DNA of 63,376 nt from Acidobacteriota bacterium (GCA_039934255.1 JBDTML010000163.1:1-63376), one strand, 5' to 3'; positions 2,196-52,519 are shown, counted from the stretch's first letter. A program made the numbers and translations. Notes: generated by a model not told the origin, from the letters alone.

Positions 2196-3370
2196 GGCAG
2201 AAGCCTCGGAACCCAGGGCAGCCCGCCGGCGATCGCGTCCCACGCCGAGCGCCCCGCCACGAAAGCCACGAGCGCGCCACAGGCAAGAAAGACGCCGAAC
2301 GGCACGTCGACTCGCGCGAGAAGCACGAGGAGCCCGGCCGGCGTCGCCTCGGCGCGCGCCGCGAGAACCCGGAAGAAGTCGGCGCCGTCGTCGAGCGCGA
2401 GGCGCCCGTGCGCGGCGGGCTCTCCGCGGCGGGCCCGCGTCCCGGCGAGCCGGACGAATGCGAGGAGACGGCCGGCGGTCGGAACGTCCGCGGTCAGGCG
2501 CATTCCGTCCGCCGCGGCCCCCGGAATCTCGCGGAAACGCGGCGAAGCCGAAAGGACGCGGCCGTCGTCCGCGACGAGGAGCCCGGCGCGGGCCGCCACG
2601 GCGAGCGCGGCAGAGGACGACGCACGAGCGCGCCGCGCCTCGAGGGACCAACGCAGAGCGCGGATCAGCGTCGCGCCGCCCGCGACCACCGTGCCCGCGA
2701 GGGAGGCGAAGAAGAGCGTGAGGAACACGCCCGCGGGTCCCGTGAACGCGCCCGCCATCGCGAGCATCTTCACGTCACCTTCCCCCATGCCTTCCTGTCC
2801 GCGCAGCCTTTTGTACACCCGGCGCACCCCTTCGAGAAAGAGCGCGCCGGCGAGCGCGCCCGCGAACGCCTCGAAGAGGTGGCTCCCGGCGAAGAACCTC
2901 ACGAGGCCGTGGTCCGAGACCGCGGCAGCCCGGTCGCGGAGCGCCGCGAGGACGAGACCGAGCACGAGAGTCCCGAGCGTCACCTCGTCGGGCAGGGTGC
3001 GCGCCTCGAGGTCCGTCGCCGCGAGGATCACCGAGGCCGCCGCGAGAAAAGCGGCCGAGGCCGCGACGAACGTCGGCCCGTAAAGAAATCCGGCGCCGAG
3101 AAAGAGAAACGCCACGAGTAATTCGACGAGCACGTAGCGTACGGGGATGGGCGCGCCGCAGCGGCGGCAACGGCCGCGGAGGAGGAGCCAGGACAAGACG
3201 GGCACGTTGTCGAAGAACGCGATCGGCGCACCGCAGGAGGGGCAGCTGGAGCGCGGGCGGACGACGGAGAGCCCGCGTGGCAAGCGGTGGATGCACACGT
3301 TTGCGAAGGAGCCCACGATCGCGCCCGTCGCGAAGAAGAGGCCCAGGAGGACGCCCTCCATGGCATTCAT
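2192..3370 (-). CDS. pilD: Prepilin peptidase / N-methyltransferase (A24 family, PilD) with a roughly 115-aa insertion before the last TM
   Basis: Zn-finger pairs CPSCGAPI and CRRCGAPI are present. The first catalytic Asp region is ATDLEARTLPDEV and the second is GMGEGDVKMLAMAG. The terminal PFG helix is VPFGVFLACGALVAF. The product is 392 aa, versus about 250-290 aa for typical PilD. Confidence 0.9.
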   Translation of the reverse strand: MNAMEGVLLGLFFATGAIVGSFANVCIHRLPRGLSVVRPRSSCPSCGAPIAFFDNVPVLSWLLLRGRCRRCGAPIPVRYVLVELLVAFLFLGAGFLYGPTFVAASAAFLAAASVILAATDLEARTLPDEVTLGTLVLGLVLAALRDRAAAVSDHGLVRFFAGSHLFEAFAGALAGALFLEGVRRVYKRLRGQEGMGEGDVKMLAMAGAFTGPAGVFLTLFFASLAGTVVAGGATLIRALRWSLEARRARASSSAALAVAARAGLLVADDGRVLSASPRFREIPGAAADGMRLTADVPTAGRLLAFVRLAGTRARRGEPAAHGRLALDDGADFFRVLAARAEATPAGLLVLLARVDVPFGVFLACGALVAFVAGRSAWDAIAGGLPWVPRLLP

Positions 3371-8558: not shown

Positions 8559-10061
8559 ATGGTCCGCCTCACGCGCCAGGCCGGAGTCCTCCTGCACCCG
8601 ACATCCCTGCCGTCGCGCTTCGGCATGGGGGATCTGGGGCCGGCTGCCGACGCGTTCCTCGACTGGGCGTCCGAGGCGGGGCTGAAGCTCTGGCAGGTAC
8701 TGCCTCCGGGACCGACCGGTCCTCACCATTCCCCCTATGACGGCCTCTCGGCCTTCGCCGGCGATCCGCTTCTCGTCTCCCCCGAATGGCTCGTCGAGGA
8801 AGGTCTCCTGCCGGCCGGCGCCCTAGAGGGTGCCCCGGATTTCCCCGCGGGCCGCATCGACTGGGAGCGCGTCGTCCCGTTCCGCCGGCGCCTCCTCGAG
8901 GAGTCGTTTCGCCACGCGCGCTCCCTCGGCGGAAAGATCGAAGAAGAGATCGCGCGCTTCACGAGCGCCTCGTCGCAATCCGCATGGCTGGCCGATTGGG
9001 CGCTCTTCGCCGCTCTTCGCGAAAGGAACGAGGCGCGGCCCTGGACCGAATGGGATCCGGCCCTCCAGCACCGCGAAGAGGCCGCTCTCGCCGCGGCGCG
9101 TGCCGAGCTCGCCGCGGAAATCGGTTTCCACACCTACGCGCAATTCCTTTTCTTCCGGCAATGGCAACGGGTCAAGGCCGCCGCGAACGCGCGCGGCATC
9201 TCGATCCTCGGGGACATACCCATCTACGTCGCGGGGGACAGCGCCGACGTCTGGGCGCACCGCAGGCTTTTCGCCCTCGGAGACGACGGGCGGCCCGCCG
9301 CCGTGGCCGGCGTTCCTCCGGACGATTTCAGCGCGGACGGCCAGCTCTGGGGCCATCCCCTCTACCGGTGGAACGTCCTCGCCGACGAGGGGTACGACTG
9401 GTGGATCGAGCGGATTCGCCTGAATCTCCGGCTCGCTGATGCGGTGCGGCTCGACCACTTCCGGGGGTTCTCGGCCTACTGGGAAGTGCCCGCCGGCGCC
9501 GCGACCGCGCGCGAGGGACGCTGGGTGAACGGACCCGGCCTCATGCTCTTCATGGCCATCCAGCACGCGCTCGGTGACGTCGCTCTCGTGGCGGAAGACC
9601 TCGGCGTTCTCACGGACGAGGTGAGGCGGCTTCTCGAGGTCCTCGGCCTGCCGGGCATGAAGGTGCTCCAGTTCGCCTTCGGCGAGCTCGACAGCGAGCA
9701 CCTGCCGCACCATCACGTTTCCAACGGCGTCGTGTACACGGGCACGCACGACAACGACACGACGCGCGCCTGGTACGCGGCGCTCGACGACGACACGAAG
9801 ACGCGATTCCGCGACTACCTCGGCACGGACGGGAAGGACGCGGCCTGGGACCTCATCCGTGCCGCGTACGCTTCCGTCGCGGAGCGGGCGATCGTGCCCC
9901 TGCAGGACATCCTCGACCTCGGAGCGGAGGGCCGCATGAACGTTCCCGGGCGCACGGGCGAGAACTGGGACTGGCGGGCCGCGAAGGATGCGTTCTCGCC
10001 CGAGCGCGCCCGGCGCCTTCGTCGCCTCGCGGAGCTGACGGGGCGCGCCGGAGCCCTCTAG
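8559..10061 (+). CDS. malQ: 4-alpha-glucanotransferase (amylomaltase, GH77)
   Basis: The N-terminus RQAGVLLHPTSLPSRFGMGDLGPAADAFLDWASEAGLKLWQVLPPGPTG..SPYDGLSAFAGDPLLVSPE and the later motifs GDIPIYV and VVYTGTHDNDT are canonical MalQ motifs. Confidence 0.95.
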   Translation: MVRLTRQAGVLLHPTSLPSRFGMGDLGPAADAFLDWASEAGLKLWQVLPPGPTGPHHSPYDGLSAFAGDPLLVSPEWLVEEGLLPAGALEGAPDFPAGRIDWERVVPFRRRLLEESFRHARSLGGKIEEEIARFTSASSQSAWLADWALFAALRERNEARPWTEWDPALQHREEAALAAARAELAAEIGFHTYAQFLFFRQWQRVKAAANARGISILGDIPIYVAGDSADVWAHRRLFALGDDGRPAAVAGVPPDDFSADGQLWGHPLYRWNVLADEGYDWWIERIRLNLRLADAVRLDHFRGFSAYWEVPAGAATAREGRWVNGPGLMLFMAIQHALGDVALVAEDLGVLTDEVRRLLEVLGLPGMKVLQFAFGELDSEHLPHHHVSNGVVYTGTHDNDTTRAWYAALDDDTKTRFRDYLGTDGKDAAWDLIRAAYASVAERAIVPLQDILDLGAEGRMNVPGRTGENWDWRAAKDAFSPERARRLRRLAELTGRAGAL

Positions 10062-11374
10062 GTCCTCTCGCTTCCCGGAAAGCGGTCGGACGGGAGGAGG
10101 ATGACCGACTCCCCCAGCCCGCCCGCCGCGTTGCCCCCGCGATACGCCTCTTCCCCGTGCACCTGGCGGTCGAGGCCCTCCAGCTCGGCGCGAAGCTCGA
10201 CCCGCAGAGGCGTGACGGACTTGACGAGAAGGAGGACGGCGGCCGTGGCCACGGCCGTGTAGAGAAAGACGATCGCGACGGCGGCGATCTGGACACCGAG
10301 CAGCGCCGCGCCTCCCGCGAGGAGCCCGTTGCCGCCGTCCGGGTTCGCCGCCTTCGAGGCGAAGACGCCGGTCAGGATCGATCCCGTGATCCCGCCGATG
10401 CCGTGGCACGCGAAGACGTCGAGCGTGTCGTCGAGGGACGTGCGCCCCCGTAAGCGAAGGGCCGTGAAGCTCGCGAGCGCCGTGAGCGCCCCGATCGCGA
10501 TCGCCGAGAGCGGCGACACGAATCCGGCCCCCGGCGTGATGCCGACGAGCCCGACGACCGCGCCCGTCGCCGCGCCGACCGCCGTCGCATGGCCGCCGAA
10601 ATGGTTCTCGAGGAGGAGCCAGGTGAGAAGGGCTGCCGCCGCCCCGGCGTTCGTCGTGACGAACGCGAGCGACGCGACGCCGTTTGCCCCCAGCGCCGAT
10701 CCGGCGTTGAAACCGAACCACCCGAACCACAGCAGGCCCGAGCCGAGGAGCACGTACGGGACGTTGTGCGGGATCAGCGCGACACGCTTGTGGTCCTGGC
10801 GCGCGCCGAGCATGCGCGCGGCGACGAGCGCGGCCGTTCCGGCCGTCACGTGAACGACCGTGCCCCCGGCGAAGTCCAGCGCGCCCCACCCGCGCAGGAA
10901 TCCTCCCGTGCCCCAGACCCAGTGTGCGACGGGGGCGTACACGGCGAGACTCCAGAGACCGATGAAGAGAATGTACGCGCGAAAGCTCATCCGCTCGACG
11001 ATCGCGCCCGAGATCAGAGCGGGGGTGATCGTCGCGAACATGCCCTGGAAGACGAAAAATGCGAGGTGCGGAACCGTCGCGGCGTAGGCCGGCTCGGGGG
11101 CCGCGCCGACGCCGCCGAGTCCAAGCCACTTCAGCCCCCCGAGGAACGCCGAGCCCGGCGCGAACGCGAGCGAGTACCCGGCCAGCATCCAGAGGATTCC
11201 TCCGATGCCCATGGCCACGTACGTCATCATGAGCGTGTTGAGCGTGTTCTTCCGCCGCACGAGGCCGCTGTAGAAGAAGGCCAGCCCCGGGTTCATGACG
11301 AAAACGAGCGCGGCCGAGCCGAGAAGCCAGGCGGTATCGCCGGCGTTTATCGCGGGCAGAGCGGCGCCGTTCAC
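10058..11374 (-). CDS. amt: Ammonium transporter (Amt family)
   Basis: The sequence reads INAGDTAWLLGSAALVFVMNPGLAFFYSGLVRRKNTLNTLMM...FAGGTVVHVTAGTAALV...VFACHGIGGITGSILTGVF. GTG start with a GTGA overlap with glnK. Confidence 0.95.
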   Translation of the reverse strand: MNGAALPAINAGDTAWLLGSAALVFVMNPGLAFFYSGLVRRKNTLNTLMMTYVAMGIGGILWMLAGYSLAFAPGSAFLGGLKWLGLGGVGAAPEPAYAATVPHLAFFVFQGMFATITPALISGAIVERMSFRAYILFIGLWSLAVYAPVAHWVWGTGGFLRGWGALDFAGGTVVHVTAGTAALVAARMLGARQDHKRVALIPHNVPYVLLGSGLLWFGWFGFNAGSALGANGVASLAFVTTNAGAAAALLTWLLLENHFGGHATAVGAATGAVVGLVGITPGAGFVSPLSAIAIGALTALASFTALRLRGRTSLDDTLDVFACHGIGGITGSILTGVFASKAANPDGGNGLLAGGAALLGVQIAAVAIVFLYTAVATAAVLLLVKSVTPLRVELRAELEGLDRQVHGEEAYRGGNAAGGLGESVILLPSDRFPGSERT

Positions 11375-13656: not shown

Positions 13657-16611
13657 ATGTCTCGAGTGATTCGTTCTATCGCCGTATTCACGGTTGCCCT
13701 GGCGCTCGCTCTCGTGTGGCCCCCCGCACCGCTCTTTGCGCAGAGCAGCGCGGGATCCATCTCGGGCACCGTGGCCGACGCCTCCGGCGGGCCCCTCCCG
13801 GGCGCGAGCGTGACCGCGAAGAACACGAAGACGGGGTCCACGCGGACGACCGTCTCCAACGCCGCGGGAGCGTTCAACTTTCCGCTTCTCTCCGTGGGCG
13901 TCTATGGCGTGACCGCGGACCTCTCCGGCTTCGGCTCGGCGACGAAAACCGGAATCGAAGTAAACGTCGGCGGCGACGTCACGCTCAAGTTCGTGCTCGC
14001 TCTCTCGAGCGTGAAGACGGCGGTGACCGTCACCGAGGAGGCGCCGCTCATCGAGACGACGCGCACGCAGCAAAGCGCCGTCGTGAACGAGAATTACATC
14101 GCGAACCTCCCGACGAACGGGCGTAACTTCATCGATTTCGTCCTCACGACGCCGGGCGTCACGAAGGACCCGCGCCTCGGCGACATCAGCTTCGCCGGCC
14201 AGCGCGGCACGCTGAACAGCCTCGTGATCGACGGCGCCGACAACAACAACACGTTCTTCGGCCAGGCCCTCGGCCGCACCGGCTCGGGCCGCGCGCCCTA
14301 CCAGTTCAGCCAGGACGCCGTGAAGGAGTTCCAGGTCAACCGGAACGCGTACACGGCCGAGTACGGACGGGCAGGCGGCGCGGTCATCAACGTCGTGACG
14401 AAGTCGGGCACGAACGAGTTCCACGGAAGCGCGTTCGAGTTCTTCCGCGACAAGGGCATGAACGCGAACGACTACGTCAACGTGATCAACGGCCGCGACA
14501 AGAGCAACTACCACTACAACCAGTTCGGTGCGAGCTTCGGCGGGCCGATCCTCAAGGACAGGCTCTTCTTCTTCGCGAACTACGACGGGCAGCGCAACAC
14601 GAACGGGCAGCCCGTCATCCTTTCCACCGGCGCCCTCCCAACGGACGCGAACACCACGGCCGGTCTCGCGAAGCTCACCGCCGTCGCGGGCCCGTACGAC
14701 CGCGGCCAGAACCAGGACGTCTATCTCGCGAAGGCCGACTACGACGCGGGCTCCTCGACGCACGTCTCCGTGCGTTACAACCGCCAGGAGTTCACGGGCG
14801 TGAACAACGAGAACGGCGGCACGACACAGTCCGTCACGCACTCGGGCAACTCGCTCGTCAAGACGGATACCGTCACCGCCTCCCTCACGAATTCCTTCGG
14901 GGCATCGCTTTTCAACGAACTGCGCGGCCAGTACGCGAGGGACTCCGAGCCCGGCCTCGCGAACAGCGCGGACCCCGAGGCGCTGATTCAGGACGTCGGA
15001 AACTTCGCCTTCACGATCGGGCGGAACAACTTCAGCCCACGCGAGACGACGATCACCCGCTATCAGGTCGCCGACGCCGTGACGCTCCTGTTCGGAAACC
15101 ACGCCGTGAAGGGCGGTTTCGACTTCAATCGCGACCTGATCCTGAACTGGTTCCCCGGAAACTTCTCCGGCAGCTATACCTTCAACTCGATCGCCTCTTA
15201 CAACCTCGGACAACCCATCCGGTTCGTCCAGGCGTTCGGGGGCCCCGGAACGAGCGGCCCCTTCACGAACCCCGATCTCTCGGAGATCGGACTCTTCCTG
15301 CAGGACGAGTGGCGGCCGACCCCGAGCCTCACCCTCAACCTCGGCCTCAGGTACGACAAGCAGGGCATCGCGCAACCCACGGTGAGGAACCCGGACGCGC
15401 AGCTCCTCGCGGCGGGCATCGACACGAGCGTCATCAAGGAGGACACGAACAACGTCGCCGTCCGCCTCGGGTTCGCGTGGTCGCCGAAGGGCCAGGACGC
15501 CACGGTCGTGCGGGGCGGATACGGCATGTTCTACGGCCGGACGCCCTCGATCATGATCGGCACCGCGATGTCGAATAACGGAGTCAACGTGCAGACGCTG
15601 ACGTTCACGGGCGCCCAGATGCCGACGTACCCGAACATCTTCCCCTCGATCCCGACGGGCGTCGCCCTGCCGAAGCCGACGATCTTCGTCTTCGACCCGA
15701 ACTTCGAGAACCCGCTCGTCCACCAGGCGAGCCTCGGCATCGAGCATGCGATGTCGAACGACTACTCGGTCGGCCTGTCCTATCTCTACGTGAAGGGCAC
15801 CAAGCTCCAGCGCTCGACGGACATCAACGTCGGATCCCCATCCGTCGTCAACTTCACGGACGCCGCCGGGAACGTCTATCCCATCACGCGCTACGGCGCC
15901 GACCGTCCCTTCACGAACTTCGCGCGCGTCGTCCAGTTCCAGAGCACGGCGGAATCCAACTACAACGGCGTCACGCTCGAGCTCAACAAGCGCTTCTCGA
16001 ACAACTGGCAGGCGCGCGTCGCGTACACGTTCGGCAAGGTGCTCGACACGAAGCCCGACGCGACCTCGGTCGTCCCGGGCGGCGGCGACGACGCCAAACA
16101 GGCCTCCGACCCGAAGAACTTCCAGGCGGACTACGCCCCGGGAGACGCCGACCAGCGCCATCGCATCGTTTTCTCGGCCTACTGGAGCCTTCCGTACTAC
16201 CGCAGCGCGGGCGGTCTCGGGCAGGCCCTGTTCGGAGGATGGTCGCTCTCGGGGATCGTCACGCTCGCGAGCGGCCAGCCGTATTCGCCGATCCTCTCGC
16301 CGCTCAACGACATCAACAACGACGGAAACAACCGCAACGACCGCGCCCCGGGCTTCTCGCGCAATTCGTTCAACTACCCGACGTTCTTCTCGATCGACCC
16401 GCGCATCACGAAGGACGTCCCGCTCGGAGGGGTGACGCTCCAGGTGATTCTCGAGGCCTTCAACGTGTTGAATCGGTCGAACATCGTGAGCGTGAACCAG
16501 GGCTACTACGGTGCGAACGGAACGGTGCTCACGCCGCTCGCGAGCTTCGGCGCGCCGACCGCTTCGTTCGGCCCCCGCATCCTCCAGCTCGCCGCAAAAT
16601 TGATCTTCTGA
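13657..16611 (+). CDS. TonB-dependent-receptor-like outer-membrane protein with an N-terminal carboxypeptidase-regulatory-like domain
   Basis: The ATG at 13657 is preceded by GAAGGAGGG. The signal peptide is MSRVIRSIAVFTVALALALVWPPAPLFA/QS, followed by ISGTVADASGGPLPGASVTAKNTKTGSTRTTVSNAAGAFNF (CarboxypepD_reg). A plug-like segment (LPTNGRNFIDF) and a long beta-rich region follow, ending in a terminal Phe (..AAKLIF). Confidence 0.85.
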   Translation: MSRVIRSIAVFTVALALALVWPPAPLFAQSSAGSISGTVADASGGPLPGASVTAKNTKTGSTRTTVSNAAGAFNFPLLSVGVYGVTADLSGFGSATKTGIEVNVGGDVTLKFVLALSSVKTAVTVTEEAPLIETTRTQQSAVVNENYIANLPTNGRNFIDFVLTTPGVTKDPRLGDISFAGQRGTLNSLVIDGADNNNTFFGQALGRTGSGRAPYQFSQDAVKEFQVNRNAYTAEYGRAGGAVINVVTKSGTNEFHGSAFEFFRDKGMNANDYVNVINGRDKSNYHYNQFGASFGGPILKDRLFFFANYDGQRNTNGQPVILSTGALPTDANTTAGLAKLTAVAGPYDRGQNQDVYLAKADYDAGSSTHVSVRYNRQEFTGVNNENGGTTQSVTHSGNSLVKTDTVTASLTNSFGASLFNELRGQYARDSEPGLANSADPEALIQDVGNFAFTIGRNNFSPRETTITRYQVADAVTLLFGNHAVKGGFDFNRDLILNWFPGNFSGSYTFNSIASYNLGQPIRFVQAFGGPGTSGPFTNPDLSEIGLFLQDEWRPTPSLTLNLGLRYDKQGIAQPTVRNPDAQLLAAGIDTSVIKEDTNNVAVRLGFAWSPKGQDATVVRGGYGMFYGRTPSIMIGTAMSNNGVNVQTLTFTGAQMPTYPNIFPSIPTGVALPKPTIFVFDPNFENPLVHQASLGIEHAMSNDYSVGLSYLYVKGTKLQRSTDINVGSPSVVNFTDAAGNVYPITRYGADRPFTNFARVVQFQSTAESNYNGVTLELNKRFSNNWQARVAYTFGKVLDTKPDATSVVPGGGDDAKQASDPKNFQADYAPGDADQRHRIVFSAYWSLPYYRSAGGLGQALFGGWSLSGIVTLASGQPYSPILSPLNDINNDGNNRNDRAPGFSRNSFNYPTFFSIDPRITKDVPLGGVTLQVILEAFNVLNRSNIVSVNQGYYGANGTVLTPLASFGAPTASFGPRILQLAAKLIF

Positions 16612-46833: not shown

Positions 46834-47394
46834 ATGGTCGAGTCCCTGACGACGCCCTATCTGCTCCTGGCCGCGCCCGTGATGCTCGACCCGAACTTCT
46901 CGAAGACCGTCGTGGTCATGGGCCATCACACGCGCGAGGGCGCGCTGGGCTGGATCGTGAACCGCCTGCTCGGCGAGCCGGCCATCAAGCTCCTCGCGCC
47001 GCCGCTCGACACGGCCGTTCACCCGGAGACCCCGCTCCGGGTCGGCGGGCCCGTCCTGACGAACGGGCTCGTTGCGCTGTTTCCCGACGAGGTGCAGGAC
47101 GTCGATTCGATCGAGATGGCGCCGGGGCTCCGCGTGTCGGCCGCCGCCGAAATTCTCCCCAGGCTCTTCACGGCTCCCCCGTCCGCGGGCACGCCCGGGC
47201 TCCTCGTCATGGGGTATTCCGGCTGGGCGGCCGACCAGCTCGAGAGCGAGATGGAGGAGGGCGCCTGGCTCGTCCTTCCGTGGAACCCCGGGCTTGTCTT
47301 CACGAACGACGTCGACCGGCTCTGGGAGCGCGCGCTCGCGCGCCTCGGCGTCGATCCGGCGTCCGTGTCCTCGTCCTCCACCGGCGTGAGCTGA
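46834..47394 (+). CDS. yqgE: YqgE/AlgH family protein (UPF0301)
   Basis: The sequence reads LLLAAPVMLDPNFSKTVVVMGHHTREGALGWIVNR...GGPV...GYSGWAADQLESEMEEGAWLV. Confidence 0.88.
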   Translation: MVESLTTPYLLLAAPVMLDPNFSKTVVVMGHHTREGALGWIVNRLLGEPAIKLLAPPLDTAVHPETPLRVGGPVLTNGLVALFPDEVQDVDSIEMAPGLRVSAAAEILPRLFTAPPSAGTPGLLVMGYSGWAADQLESEMEEGAWLVLPWNPGLVFTNDVDRLWERALARLGVDPASVSSSSTGVS

Positions 47395-47395
47395 C

Positions 47396-48376
47396 GTGAA
47401 CGAGCTTTCCGCTCTCGTGCTCCGGAACGGCGTTGGTTTCGTCTTTCTGAACGTCCTCCTCCAGCAGCTCGGCGTTCCGGTCCCCGCGGTCCCGACCCTT
47501 CTCGTCGCGGGCGCTCTCGCGGCCGACGGAAGGCTGCCTTTCGGAAGCCTGCTTGCCGCCGCATTCCTCGCTACGGTCGCGGCCGACACGGCCTGGTTCC
47601 TGCTCGGCCGGCGCTACGGGCAGAGGGTCCTCAAGGCGCTCTGCAAGCTGTCGCTCTCTCCCGATTCCTGCGTCAGGCAAACCGAGGGCCTCTTCGATTC
47701 GTATGGCCTCCGGTCGCTGCTCTTCGCGAAATTCGTTCCCGGTTACTCCACCGTGGCGCCGCCCCTCGCCGGCGCGGCGGGCGCGACGCTGCCCCGCTTC
47801 CTCGTATTCACGTCGGGTGGAACTCTGCTCTGGGCGGGAACCGCGCTCGGTCTCGGCCTCGTCTTCCATGGCGCGATCGACCGGGTTCTGGCCTTTCTCT
47901 CGAGTCTCGGCAGCGGCGCGTTCGCTCTGCTGGCGGGAGGCCTCGTTCTCTACGTCGCCGTCAAATGGACCCAGCGGCGCCGCTTCTACAGGTTTCTCCG
48001 AATGGCCCGCATCGGCGTCCACGACCTTCGGCGGCTCATGGACGACGGACAGACGCCCTTGATCGTCGACGTCCGCTCCAACAACGCCCGAAACCGCGAT
48101 CCCCGAAGGATTCCCGGAGCGATCGTCGTCAACATCCTCGAGCTGGACGAGAAGATCGGCCACCTGCCGACGGACCGGGAGATCGTTCTCTACTGCACGT
48201 GACCCAACGAAGCCTCGGCGGCCCGTGTGGCACGCCTCCTCATGGACCGCGGGTTCGCCCTCGTCCGCCCGCTCGAAGGCGGGCTCGACGCGTGGGAAGA
48301 GGCCGGTTACCAGGTCGAGATCGAGGCCGAGCGGATTCCCATGAGCCCGACGGGCTCATTCTCGCCAGCGCCCTGA
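47396..48376 (+). CDS. DedA (SNARE-associated) membrane domain fused to a rhodanese domain, interrupted by in-frame TGA at 48200-48202 (candidate selenocysteine; alternatively a nonsense-disrupted gene)
   Basis: The DedA part reads LQQLGVPVPAVPTLLVAGALA...FAKFVPGYSTVAPPLAG. The rhodanese part reads LIVDVRS...IPGAI...REIVLYCT-TGA-PNEASAARVARLLMDRGFALVRPLEGGLDAWEEAGYQVE. The same frame continues for 58 codons past the TGA, to the stop at 48374-48376. Confidence 0.7.
48217..48236 (+). promoter_or_regulatory. SECIS-like hairpin 15 nt downstream of the in-frame UGA
   Basis: GGCGGCC-CGUGU-GGC(A)CGCC forms 7 GC-rich base pairs with one bulged A. The 5-nt apical loop contains G/U. Confidence 0.4.
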
Positions 48377-48380
48377 ACCT

Positions 48381-48791
48381 TCACGCCCGCTCCCAGGTTT
48401 CCTCCACCACGACGTCCGGGTGGAGCGAAAGCCTCACGGGACAGGTCTTGCCCGCGTGGACCAGCTTCTGGAAGTCCGCCTCGTCGCAGGGCGACGAAAC
48501 GCGGTAGCGCGCCACGAGCTTCGCGATGCGCCGCGGGGGCGCGGGCGTCATGTGCTTCTCGATGTCGAACGTCACGCCCGTCAGGGGAATCCCGTTCCGC
48601 GTGGCGTACAGACTCAGCGTCGTCGTCGCGCATACCGCGAGGGACGCCGCACAGAGATCCGTCGGCGAAAAGCGACTCCCGTCGCCGCCGTTGTCCTTCG
48701 GCGCCGTCGTTTCGAGAACCGCTCCGGAAGGGCCGTGTCGGAGCTCGGTGCCGGTGGGAGAGGTGAGCCTGCCTGAAATCGAAACGCTCAT
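48381..48791 (-). CDS. OsmC/Ohr family peroxiredoxin-like protein
   Basis: The sequence reads ..GGDGSRFSPTDLCAASLAVCATTTL... and ..HAGKTCPVRLSL.. (two conserved Cys regions of OsmC). Confidence 0.85.
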   Translation of the reverse strand: MSVSISGRLTSPTGTELRHGPSGAVLETTAPKDNGGDGSRFSPTDLCAASLAVCATTTLSLYATRNGIPLTGVTFDIEKHMTPAPPRRIAKLVARYRVSSPCDEADFQKLVHAGKTCPVRLSLHPDVVVEETWERA

Positions 48792-51946: not shown

Positions 51947-52519
51947 TCAGCCCTTCTTCTTCGTGGGCGCCAGCTTCGCGAGAGGCTCGACCCACATCTC
52001 CTCCACGCGGCGCTGCTTGTCGGACATGCCCATCCGATAGCGCAGGCGCACCCGGCACTCCGGGACCGCCCAGGACGACACACCCGGGTCGGAGGCGACG
52101 GGCGTTCCCTTGCCGTAGCGCTCGAGGATTCCTTCGTAAAGTCCGGAAGGCGGGTCGAGGAGGTAGTGCAGTGCCACGACGGTCGCGTCGGCCGCGTCGG
52201 ACGAATAGGTCACGTCCACGATCCATGGCCGCTTCTCTGGGGTGTGCAGGACCTTCACGTCCCGAACGACCGTCTTCTTCGCCGGCTCGTGCAGGGCCAT
52301 CCGCTCGAAAGAAAACGCGCGGGTCTGCCCGATTTCGAGGCCTGCCATTCCGGGGCAGGGGGGCGGCGTCGGGTGGGCCACGGGGGTGCCCGTCGACGGG
52401 GCCGCCGAGCCCGTCTGGGGACCCGTCTGCTGCGTTTGGACCTGAATCTGCGCGTTCGCGGGAAGGGTGGCGAGACCCGCCAGAAAAAGGGCCGTGCAAA
52501 GGAAAAGGAAAGGTTTCAT
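51947..52519 (-). CDS. Secreted hypothetical protein
   Basis: The signal peptide is MKPFLFLCTALFLAGLATLPANA/QI. RBS CAGGAG. No recognisable domain. Confidence 0.6.
   Translation of the reverse strand: MKPFLFLCTALFLAGLATLPANAQIQVQTQQTGPQTGSAAPSTGTPVAHPTPPPCPGMAGLEIGQTRAFSFERMALHEPAKKTVVRDVKVLHTPEKRPWIVDVTYSSDAADATVVALHYLLDPPSGLYEGILERYGKGTPVASDPGVSSWAVPECRVRLRYRMGMSDKQRRVEEMWVEPLAKLAPTKKKG

What the first reader, a model, noticed from the sequence alone, without database searches (positions are those of the whole stretch)
47396..48376. In-frame TGA in the rhodanese active-site loop of a DedA-rhodanese fusion: candidate selenocysteine (C-x-U) with a SECIS-like hairpin
The tracked ORF ends at 48202 (...DREIVLYCT*). 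The same frame then continues for 58 sense codons: PNEASAARVARLLMDRGFALVRPLEGGLDAWEEAGYQVEIEAE..., with the stop at 48374-48376. That continuation is the conserved second half of a rhodanese fold (..GG.DAW..), so the TGA cuts the domain inside its catalytic loop.

In Cys-containing relatives this loop reads, as I recall it, YC-x-C-PNE-x-SA. The TGA would then sit at a Cys column, giving C-T-U.

A GC-rich hairpin, GGCGGCC-CGUGU-GGC(A)CGCC, lies at 48217-48236. It starts 15 nt after the UGA, within the spacing expected for a bacterial SECIS. Gene callers would truncate this protein. The alternatives are a TGC-to-TGA nonsense mutation (pseudogene) or a base-calling error.
Basis: partly seen in the sequence, partly recalled or inferred. 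Interest (0 to 1): 0.78.

Follow-up and report, generated by a model that had tools for sequence, protein, structure and literature searches.

The report
Membrane-anchored rhodanese selenoprotein gene, mis-annotated as truncated
The in-frame TGA is almost certainly a selenocysteine codon in the active site of a DedA-rhodanese fusion enzyme; the same TGA and a matching RNA hairpin recur in dozens of soil-bacterial genomes whose public annotations cut the protein short.

Summary
ORF 47396-48202 ends ...LYCT-TGA. The same frame then runs 57 more sense codons, completing a rhodanese domain, to a TGA stop at 48374-48376.

The TGA sits at the same column in 62 distinct sequences from Thermoanaerobaculia/Acidobacteriota, Rokubacteria and Betaproteobacteria. 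Another 37 homologues carry TGC or TGT there (LYCT-C-PNEASAA). Purifying selection is equally strong on both sides of the TGA. TGA is also the ordinary stop codon in this window.

The hairpin at 48217-48236 is not unusually stable in this sequence alone (z = -0.34). Comparison supports it strongly:
- Seven codons show no synonymous variation.
- Third-position bases covary: GCC/GTG in 48 sequences, GCG/GTC in 10, one exception.
- The CGUGU loop is present in 55 of 62 Sec forms.
- Cys forms lack the stem.

The closest named family is NCBIfam NF041203, "rhodanese_LYCAU", a CxU rhodanese selenoprotein. The window protein scores 77-80 bits against a cutoff of 115 and is fused to a DedA membrane domain. 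I therefore read it as a new architectural variant of a known selenoprotein kind. Public gene calls truncate it at 268 aa.

Not verified: selA, selB, selC or selD in this genome. None lies in the window or in 1.24 Mb of related loci.

The parts
47396..48376 (+). Complete read-through coding sequence: GTG start, 326 codons including UGA-Sec at codon 269, real stop TGA.
   Evidence: tblastn matches to query residues 1-326 in related genomes. Full-length Cys homologues of 309-330 aa.
47480..47857 (+). DedA/VTT membrane domain (aa 29-154).
   Evidence: Pfam PF09335, 44.6 bits against a cutoff of 33.9. The AlphaFold model of Cys homologue P0095 is all-helical over residues 2-203.
47912..48010 (+). 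Last transmembrane helix plus arginine-rich linker (aa ~173-205, ...YVAVKWTQRRRFYRFLRMAR). By the positive-inside rule it places the rhodanese domain on the cytoplasmic side.
   Evidence: Helix 173-203 in the model of homologue P0095. Topology is inferred, not tested.
48020..48301 (+). Rhodanese domain (aa 209-302), interrupted by the UGA in its active-site loop.
   Evidence: Pfam PF00581, 51.5 bits against a cutoff of 22.2. Foldseek top PDB hits are all rhodanese domains: 3ilm, 6mxv, 5ve3, YgaP 5hbo, GlpE 1gmx.
48194..48196 (+). Cys267 codon (TGC), the C of the C-T-U motif. Candidate resolving or relay thiol.
   Evidence: Invariant or near-invariant in the alignments. In the homologue model the equivalent Cys is the second-to-last residue of the strand at 261-266.
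48200..48202 (+). UGA decoded as selenocysteine (Sec269).
   Evidence: TGA is at this column in 62 distinct sequences, and TGC/TGT in 37. The ungapped phmmer alignment to 6mxv places this column on the catalytic Cys of Y-C-GGGFR-S.
48217..48236 (+). SECIS-like hairpin. Stem GGCGGCC / GGC-A-CGCC, bulge at 48232, loop CGUGU at 48224-48228. The core conserved across phyla is 48218-48235 (6 bp plus bulge plus loop).
   Evidence: Codons +5 to +11 have no synonymous variation in 17 relatives. 93.9% of cells are paired, three pairs show compensatory change, and 0/500 shuffles reach the observed score. 6-7 of 7 pairs form in 61/62 Sec forms, against mostly 2-5 in Cys forms; the loop is CGTGT in 55/62.
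48374..48376 (+). True stop codon (TGA) of the selenoprotein gene.
   Evidence: This TGA has no hairpin of the SECIS type after it, and homologues end within a few codons of it.

Best explanation
47396-48376 is one gene for a 326-aa selenoprotein. It has an N-terminal DedA/VTT membrane domain, a final transmembrane helix with an Arg-rich linker, and a C-terminal rhodanese domain whose active-site loop reads Cys267-Thr-Sec269-Pro-Asn-Glu-Ala-Ser.

Decoding (inferred). The UGA at 48200 is decoded as selenocysteine. A small mRNA hairpin lies 14-15 nt downstream: a 6-7 bp stem with one bulge and a CGUGU loop whose G-U sits 26-27 nt from the U of UGA. It would recruit SelB-GTP-Sec-tRNA(Sec) to the ribosome, as in other bacterial SECIS elements. 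Because the hairpin lies inside the coding sequence, it constrains the peptide. Sec forms are locked to Ala-Ala-Arg-Val-Ala-Arg with codons GCG GCC CGU GUG GCN CGC. Cys forms vary and carry Lys instead of the second Arg.

Protein function (inferred). Sec most likely occupies the catalytic nucleophile position of the rhodanese loop. Cys267, two residues upstream on the same strand face, would act as a partner that can form a selenenylsulfide or relay a persulfide or perselenide. The domain would then be a high-reactivity sulfur/selenium-transferase or thiol-type redox module held at the cytoplasmic face of the membrane next to a DedA transporter-like domain.

Shown: the conserved UGA, Cys in homologues, coding constraint on both sides, and a conserved, covarying hairpin.

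Inferred: SelB dependence, Sec as the catalytic residue, cytoplasmic location, and the chemistry.
For: 1. The TGA is at the same column in the window and 24 genome loci. These are Thermoanaerobaculia/Acidobacteriota MAGs, one Betaproteobacteria MAG and two Rokubacteria MAGs. About 45 metagenome loci also carry it. Together they give 62 distinct TGA sequences against 37 distinct TGC/TGT sequences.

2. About 90 protein clusters at 64-94% identity are all called at exactly 268 aa. Full-length homologues at 51-60% identity read LYCTCPNEASAA.

3. The synonymous fraction of codon differences is 0.55 downstream of the TGA and 0.60 upstream.

4. TGA is the normal stop in this window. It ends 13 of 19 long ORFs and also ends this gene.

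5. Hairpin evidence:
- Codon entropy is zero at +5 to +11. The mean is 0.39 in the +1..+16 zone against 0.97 elsewhere.
- Three pairs show compensatory change, and 0/500 shuffles reach the covariation score.
- Codon +7/+9 pairs are (GCC,GTG) 48, (GCG,GTC) 10, non-complementary 1. In Cys forms the count is 14 complementary to 11 non-complementary.
- When codon +6 is GCC, codon +10 is always GCG (14/14).
- The Arg codon at +8 is CGT in 57/62 Sec forms. Cys forms use CGC 11, CGT 3, CGG 2.
- Codon +11 is CGC (Arg) in 57/62 Sec forms and AAG/AAA (Lys) in 31/37 Cys forms.
- The stem has 6-7 of 7 pairs in 61/62 Sec forms, against mostly 2-5 in Cys forms.

6. The closest named family is the CxU rhodanese selenoprotein NF041203 (PMC13188914, PMC9312934).

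7. Other Sec candidates occur in related lineages. L029, a Thermoanaerobaculia MAG, has a stand-alone FYCA-U rhodanese with its own hairpin. L025, a Rokubacteria MAG, has a Prx-like W-U-PFC gene 3.4 kb from its DedA-rhodanese gene.

8. The ungapped alignment to PDB 6mxv places the Sec column on the catalytic Cys.
Against: - No selA, selB, selD or tRNA-Sec was found in the 63-kb window or in 1.24 Mb of related loci. The decoding machinery of this organism is therefore unverified.
- No Rfam family matches the hairpin.
- The hairpin is not thermodynamically exceptional in a 69% GC sequence (z = -0.34), and the single-sequence minimum-energy fold is a different, non-conserved structure.
- Ala-Ala-Arg-Val-Ala in GC-rich coding DNA is intrinsically palindromic, and some Cys forms also fold locally. 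Mean dG is -8.9 against -11.7 kcal/mol.
- The sequences are phylogenetically related, so covariation counts overstate the number of independent events.
- Which of Cys267 and Sec269 is the catalytic residue rests on one ungapped alignment. Another PDB alignment (6pfz) puts the first Cys on the catalytic position with a 2-residue gap.
- There is no expression or proteomic evidence.
Confidence: 0.9

Rival explanations
1. Pseudogene or error. A TGC-to-TGA nonsense mutation, or a base-calling or assembly error, truncates a Cys-type DedA-rhodanese gene.
For: A single nucleotide separates TGA from TGC. Cys forms are common. Some related MAG loci do carry frameshifts elsewhere in the gene (L023, L026).
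Against: The same TGA occurs in 62 distinct sequences from independent assemblies and several phyla. The downstream frame is under the same purifying selection as the upstream frame. A nonsense mutation would not come with a clade-specific covarying hairpin.
Confidence: 0.01
2. Genuine termination. The cell makes a 268-aa DedA protein with half a rhodanese domain. The conserved downstream sequence is a separate small ORF (GTG at 48227, 49 aa) or a conserved regulatory RNA.
For: Gene callers produce exactly this (about 90 clusters of 268 aa). A GTG-start 49-aa ORF exists at 48227-48376. In bacteria, SECIS-dependent read-through is never 100% efficient, so some truncated product is expected anyway (general knowledge).
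Against: The break falls inside the catalytic loop of a single compact fold. The residues between the TGA and the GTG (PNEASAAR) are conserved as amino acids and align with Cys-form homologues. Cys forms encode the same domain uninterrupted.
Confidence: 0.03
3. UGA read-through without selenium. The hairpin stimulates near-cognate decoding (Trp or Cys), or the organism charges a suppressor tRNA, so position 269 is not Sec.
For: The Sec machinery was not found in the sequence available. Structures downstream of stop codons can enhance read-through (general knowledge).
Against: The column is strictly Cys in non-TGA homologues, which is the classic Sec/Cys pair. The nearest curated family is a selenoprotein with the same CxU motif. 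TGA is the main genuine stop in the window. The hairpin has the geometry of bacterial SECIS elements: an apical loop with G-U about 21 nt after the UGA. Acidobacteria are recorded as Sec users (PMC1794560, Table 2).
Confidence: 0.05

Closest known systems
NCBIfam NF041203 'rhodanese_LYCAU', rhodanese-related (seleno)protein. [quoted passage not shown]
   Same: Rhodanese domain. Sec lies two residues after a conserved Cys in the motif L-Y-C-x-U-P. It is the best NCBIfam hit, covering almost the whole profile (positions 20-124 of 126). It is a predicted selenoprotein with no experimental characterisation.
   Different: The score is 77-80 bits against a curated cutoff of 115, so the window protein is not a member by NCBI's criterion. 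That family is a ~126-aa stand-alone protein, whereas this one is fused behind a ~200-aa DedA membrane domain. The motif is LYCTU rather than LYCAU. The catalogues I could search do not mention a DedA fusion ('DedA' occurs 0 times in PMC13188914).
Cys-type DedA-rhodanese fusion proteins (COG0586 DedA + PF00581), for example P. aeruginosa PA1209. NCBI names them 'DedA family protein/thiosulfate sulfurtransferase GlpE'.
   Same: Same two-domain architecture. Identity is 51-60% over 94-97% of the length. The active-site peptide LYCT-C-PNEASAA is the same. This is the true orthologous family.
   Different: They carry Cys where this gene has UGA, and they lack the frozen hairpin. Their function is unknown; the literature calls the rhodanese link to undecaprenyl-phosphate flipping 'unclear' (PMC10127716; PMC12893004).
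E. coli fdhF-type bacterial SECIS (SelB-binding stem-loop immediately 3' of the UGA). Comparison is from established knowledge, not tested here.
   Same: A stem-loop inside the coding sequence shortly after the UGA. It has a small apical loop containing G-U, a single bulged nucleotide, and a fixed distance from the UGA.
   Different: The sequence is different. The bulge is on the 3' arm rather than the 5' arm. The loop is CGUGU, and its G-U sits at +26/+27 rather than +23/+24. No Rfam model matches. SelB binding is untested.
TsoB, a rhodanese/DsbD fusion-like selenoprotein (NF045694, UxxxxU; PMC13188914).
   Same: Another case of a rhodanese-domain selenoprotein fused to a membrane module.
   Different: The membrane partner and the Sec motif are different. 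NF045694 was not among the NCBIfam hits at E <= 0.01.

Membership tests
Bacterial selenoprotein gene (UGA-Sec recoding) | In-frame UGA conserved at the same column in orthologues | tested here: met
   62 distinct TGA sequences from several phyla.
Bacterial selenoprotein gene (UGA-Sec recoding) | Cys at the aligned column in homologues | tested here: met
   37 distinct TGC/TGT forms. Protein homologues read LYCTCPNEASAA.
Bacterial selenoprotein gene (UGA-Sec recoding) | Protein-coding constraint on both sides of the UGA | tested here: met
   Synonymous share of codon differences is 0.60 upstream and 0.55 downstream. The Pfam rhodanese match spans the UGA.
Bacterial selenoprotein gene (UGA-Sec recoding) | Conserved stem-loop (SECIS) shortly downstream of the UGA | tested here: met
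   Frozen synonymous sites, compensatory changes, and presence in Sec forms but not Cys forms. Caveats: single-sequence z = -0.34 and no Rfam hit.
Bacterial selenoprotein gene (UGA-Sec recoding) | selA, selB, selC (tRNA-Sec) and selD in the same genome | not testable with these tools
   Absent from the window and from 1.24 Mb of related loci.
Bacterial selenoprotein gene (UGA-Sec recoding) | Selenium in the protein (75Se labelling or mass spectrometry) | not testable with these tools
   Requires experiment.
NF041203 rhodanese_LYCAU (CxU rhodanese selenoprotein) | Rhodanese domain with the L-Y-C-x-U motif | tested here: met
   LYC-T-U. The profile is matched over positions 20-124 of 126.
NF041203 rhodanese_LYCAU (CxU rhodanese selenoprotein) | Score at or above the curated cutoff (115 bits) | tested here: not met
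   77.4 bits for the full protein and 80.1 bits for the domain alone.
NF041203 rhodanese_LYCAU (CxU rhodanese selenoprotein) | Stand-alone protein of about 126 aa | tested here: not met
   The domain is fused to a DedA/VTT domain in a 326-aa protein.
DedA/VTT family (PF09335) | Pfam match above the gathering score | tested here: met
   44.6 bits against 33.9.
DedA undecaprenyl-phosphate flippases (UptA, NF052604; PRK10847) | Score above the equivalog cutoff | tested here: not met
   29.5 bits against 250, and 31.7 bits against 236. Flippase activity cannot be assumed.
DedA-rhodanese fusion family (PA1209-like) | Full-length collinear homology with both domains | tested here: met
   51-60% identity over 94-97% of the query to proteins of 309-330 aa that carry PF09335 and PF00581.

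The most novel reading that the evidence does not exclude
The selenocysteine marks the rhodanese domain of DedA-rhodanese fusions as a working, highly reactive chalcogen-transfer or redox site that is functionally coupled to the DedA membrane domain. For example, it could capture or reduce a sulfur or selenium species, or another oxyanion, that the DedA part moves across the membrane.

This would give the enigmatic DedA-rhodanese fusions a defined chemistry. It would also link them to the old genetic observation that a DedA protein affects selenite uptake in Ralstonia/Cupriavidus metallidurans (Ledgham et al. 2005, cited in PMC10127716).

Nothing here tests that coupling. Gene neighbourhoods give no conserved partner outside one clade.
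Probability: 0.12. Interest if true: 0.7.

Novelty: new variant of a known kind. Interest (0 to 1): 0.45.

Why it matters
1. Annotation. Every public gene call I saw for this clade stops at 268 aa and is named only 'DedA' or 'VTT domain-containing protein'. That covers about 90 protein clusters from NCBI, JGI, ENA and Logan. A widespread soil-bacterial selenoprotein is therefore missing from protein databases, and its rhodanese domain is cut in half.

2. Selenoproteome. The finding adds a membrane-anchored architecture to the CxU rhodanese selenoproteins. It also shows Sec use in Thermoanaerobaculia and Rokubacteria MAGs.

3. DedA biology. Why DedA domains are fused to rhodanese is an open question. 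Repeated Sec/Cys exchange at one residue points to that residue as the functional centre and gives a clear mutational target.

4. SECIS evolution. The element is a clean natural example of an RNA structure dictating protein sequence: the Lys-to-Arg change and the frozen Ala-Ala-Arg-Val-Ala-Arg peptide.

Tried and rejected
- Rfam at gathering thresholds on the whole window, and at E <= 10 on 48150-48300. The only result was a chance Guanidine-III hit on the opposite strand.
- Single-sequence folding. The minimum-energy fold of 48200-48250 is an 11-bp alternative structure. It is complete only in 17 close relatives and is not conserved elsewhere, so I rejected it.
- RNAalifold on 21 sequences kept only the top 3 bp, because the bulge register differs between lineages. 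I counted pairs in three registers instead.
- Sec machinery. ARAGORN on the window and loci, and tblastn with E. coli SelA, SelB and SelD fetched from NC_000913, found nothing. I ran no further search on E. coli Sel proteins, because the top-120 list would be enterobacterial and could not be tied to this organism.
- A scan of the window for other TGA-interrupted coding frames found only this gene. The second hit, at 51949, is just two adjacent genes in the same frame.
- The look-up of encoding contigs with the window's 268-aa product found no record, so the sample of origin is unknown.
I modelled the Cys homologue P0095 instead. No coordinates were available, so the geometry of Cys267 and Sec269 could not be measured.
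- Neighbourhood analysis for a conserved partner gene. The order YqgE - gene - OsmC-like - M23 - penicillin amidase holds only inside the close Thermoanaerobaculia clade.
- Genetic-code reassignment of TGA was rejected, because TGA ends 13 of 19 long ORFs here.

Full report
**1. The observation**

The window has 69% G+C.

- Searches show a GTG-start ORF at 47396-48202 that ends ...DREIVLYCT followed by TGA at 48200-48202.
- The same frame continues for 57 sense codons (PNEASAARVARLLMDRGFALVRPLEGGLDAWEEAGYQVEIEAE...) to a TGA at 48374-48376. The 326-aa total is correct.
- With Cys substituted at the TGA, Pfam finds a VTT/DedA domain at aa 29-154 and a rhodanese domain at aa 209-302. The TGA therefore falls inside a single domain.
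- The hairpin is at the stated coordinates. GGCGGCC is at 48217-23, CGUGU at 48224-28, and GGC-A-CGCC at 48229-36.

**2. Is the TGA an accident?**

A protein search returned about 90 distinct 90%-identity clusters at 64-94% identity to the query. Every one is exactly 268 aa long. They come from JGI, ENA, NCBI and Logan. Where named, they are 'DedA' or 'VTT domain-containing protein' from Thermoanaerobaculia MAGs.

Full-length homologues of 309-330 aa appear only at 51-60% identity. They read LYCT-C-PNEASAA, so the TGA aligns with the second Cys.

I fetched DNA from a genome collection and a metagenome collection and translated it. A TGA sits at this exact column in:
- the window and 24 genome loci, comprising Thermoanaerobaculia/Acidobacteriota MAGs, one Betaproteobacteria MAG and two Rokubacteria MAGs;
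- about 45 metagenome contigs.

These give 62 distinct TGA sequences against 37 distinct TGC/TGT sequences. In all TGA forms the downstream peptide PNEA[ST]AARVAR...VRPL.GG.[DE].W is intact.

Among 16 close relatives, the share of codon differences that are synonymous is 0.55 after the TGA and 0.60 before it. Both sides are under the same protein-level selection.

TGA is the ordinary stop here. It ends 13 of 19 long ORFs and terminates this gene too. A reassigned genetic code is therefore excluded, as are a nonsense mutation, a sequencing error and a decaying pseudogene.

**3. The hairpin**

On thermodynamics alone the hairpin is unremarkable. Folding 48200-48250 gives z = -0.34 against shuffles, and the minimum-energy structure is a different fold. 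That alternative fold is complete only in close relatives. No Rfam family matches.

The comparative evidence is strong.

- In 17 close relatives, codons +5 to +11 (TCG GCG GCC CGT GTG GCA/G CGC) show no synonymous variation except at the bulged base. Flanking four-fold sites vary freely. Mean codon entropy is 0.39 in the +1..+16 zone against 0.97 elsewhere.
- On 21 sequences, 93.9% of cells pair and three pairs carry compensatory changes. None of 500 shuffles reaches the observed covariation score.
- Across the 62 Sec forms, third positions of codons +7 and +9 covary. (GCC,GTG) occurs 48 times, (GCG,GTC) 10 times, and a non-complementary combination once. In Cys forms the split is 14 complementary to 11 not.
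- A GCC at codon +6 is always accompanied by GCG at codon +10 (14/14). This moves the bulge by one position.
- The loop Arg codon is the otherwise rare CGT in 57/62 Sec forms. Cys forms use CGC 11, CGT 3 and CGG 2.
- Codon +11 is CGC (Arg) in 57/62 Sec forms but AAG/AAA (Lys) in 31/37 Cys forms.
- 61/62 Sec forms make 6-7 of the 7 pairs. Cys forms mostly make 2-5. The loop is CGUGU in 55/62 Sec forms.

The core conserved across phyla is a 6-bp stem with one bulge and a 5-nt loop. The seventh, basal pair (48217/48236) is specific to the Thermoanaerobaculia clade.

The element has the layout of a bacterial SECIS: it lies within the coding sequence, about 15 nt after the UGA, with G-U in the apical loop (established knowledge of the E. 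coli fdhF element). It also visibly shapes the amino-acid sequence of Sec forms. SelB binding itself is inferred.

**4. What could not be shown**

Neither the window nor 1.24 Mb of related loci contains tRNA-Sec (ARAGORN). Neither contains SelA, SelB or SelD (tblastn with the E. coli proteins). The tools gave no access to the rest of these genomes.

Indirect support:
- A Thermoanaerobaculia MAG contig (L029) encodes a stand-alone rhodanese with FYCA-TGA-PDE followed by its own hairpin.
- A Rokubacteria contig (L025) has a peroxiredoxin-like gene with W-TGA-PFC and a long palindrome, 3.4 kb from its DedA-rhodanese Sec gene.
- Acidobacteria are listed among phyla with selenoproteins (PMC1794560, Table 2).

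**5. The protein**

I modelled the Cys homologue P0095. It is 58% identical to the window protein over its alignment and has an identical active-site peptide. AlphaFold gave mean pLDDT 83.

- Residues 2-203 form a helical membrane domain that ends in a long helix.
- An alpha/beta domain follows. Its PDB neighbours are all rhodanese domains: Alr3790, 6mxv, the PRF rhodanese fusion, YgaP and GlpE.
- The linker after the last hydrophobic helix, KWTQRRRFYRFLRMAR, is strongly basic. By the positive-inside rule the rhodanese domain should be cytoplasmic. This is inference.
- In the model, the first Cys is the second-to-last residue of the central strand (261-266). The second Cys, which is the Sec column, opens the loop before the helix.
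- The ungapped phmmer alignment to both domains of 6mxv places the Sec column on the catalytic Cys of Y-C-GGGFR-S. An alignment to 6pfz instead puts the first Cys there, with a two-residue gap.

I therefore favour Sec as the catalytic nucleophile and Cys267 as a partner thiol (C-x-U). This is not settled.

**6. Evolution and context**

A neighbour-joining tree of the N-terminal 255 residues separates large Sec clades from a large Cys clade. There are a few switches: Cys forms L067 and L077 lie inside Sec clades, and Sec form L106 lies inside the Cys clade. This is the usual pattern of Sec/Cys exchange.

The order YqgE/AlgH - this gene - OsmC-like - M23 peptidase - penicillin amidase is conserved only within the close Thermoanaerobaculia clade. 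It gives no functional clue that holds across the family.

**7. Comparison with what is known**

- NCBIfam's best match is NF041203, 'rhodanese_LYCAU, rhodanese-related (seleno)protein'. The score is 77-80 bits, below the cutoff of 115.
- Recent catalogues list this family as a predicted CxU rhodanese selenoprotein (PMC9312934; PMC13188914). Sec at this position of a rhodanese loop is therefore already known.
- DedA-rhodanese fusions with Cys are also known, for example PA1209. Their function is unexplained (PMC10127716, PMC12893004).
- I found no paper connecting DedA with a Sec codon.

The gene is best described as a new architectural variant of a known selenoprotein kind. It is membrane-anchored and fused to DedA, and it has its own SECIS. 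It is widespread in soil-type MAGs and systematically truncated by annotation pipelines.

**8. Verdict**

Novelty is moderate. The main open points are the Sec machinery of this genome and the biochemical role of the C-T-U site.

Noticed in passing
L029:2119-3288 (+), TGA at 3151: A Thermoanaerobaculia MAG contig encodes a stand-alone ~108-aa rhodanese with FYCA-TGA-PDE. A hairpin UUCCGCC-GGUCG-GGCGGAA follows directly after the TGA. It is a second Sec-rhodanese type in the same class. Its best NCBIfam hit is NF041203 at 52 bits, below the cutoff of 115.
   Followed up: partly
L025:13685-14590 (+), TGA at 14246: A Rokubacteria contig carries a peroxiredoxin/AhpC-TSA-like gene with FYRGYW-TGA-PFC and a 10-bp palindrome just after the TGA. 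It lies 3.4 kb downstream of that genome's DedA-rhodanese Sec gene and is a likely UxxC selenoprotein.
   Followed up: partly
L112: TGA at 10805 and 11620: Two tandem copies of the Sec-form active-site region lie on one metagenome contig. The second copy appears decayed after VRPQ, suggesting a duplicated or pseudogenised copy.
   Followed up: no
L023 and L026, around 10001-10800: Two MAG loci have frameshifts in the N-terminal DedA part of the gene, while the TGA and the downstream frame are intact. These are probably assembly indel errors rather than real pseudogenes.
   Followed up: no
L106 (TGA at 2670); L067 and L077 (TGC): In the neighbour-joining tree, one Sec form (ILYCQ-U-PSE) is nested in the Cys clade and two Cys forms are nested in Sec clades. 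This suggests repeated Sec/Cys switching. L106 could alternatively be a recent nonsense mutation.
   Followed up: partly
window 48381-48791 (-): The convergent neighbour is an OsmC-like protein. It has a weak match to NF041052, 'OsmC-related (seleno)protein' (33.6 bits, cutoff 95). Here it carries Cys rather than Sec. The adjacency is conserved only in the close Thermoanaerobaculia clade.
   Followed up: partly
window 47392-47398: The upstream YqgE/AlgH-family gene (46834-47394) ends in TGA one base before the GTG start of the DedA-rhodanese gene. This suggests co-transcription or translational coupling. The arrangement is kept in the close clade.
   Followed up: no
window 51947-51949 (-): A second 'in-frame TGA with coding signal on both sides' turned up in my scan. 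It is only the stop of one gene followed in frame by the start of the penicillin-amidase gene, not a recoding candidate.
   Followed up: yes
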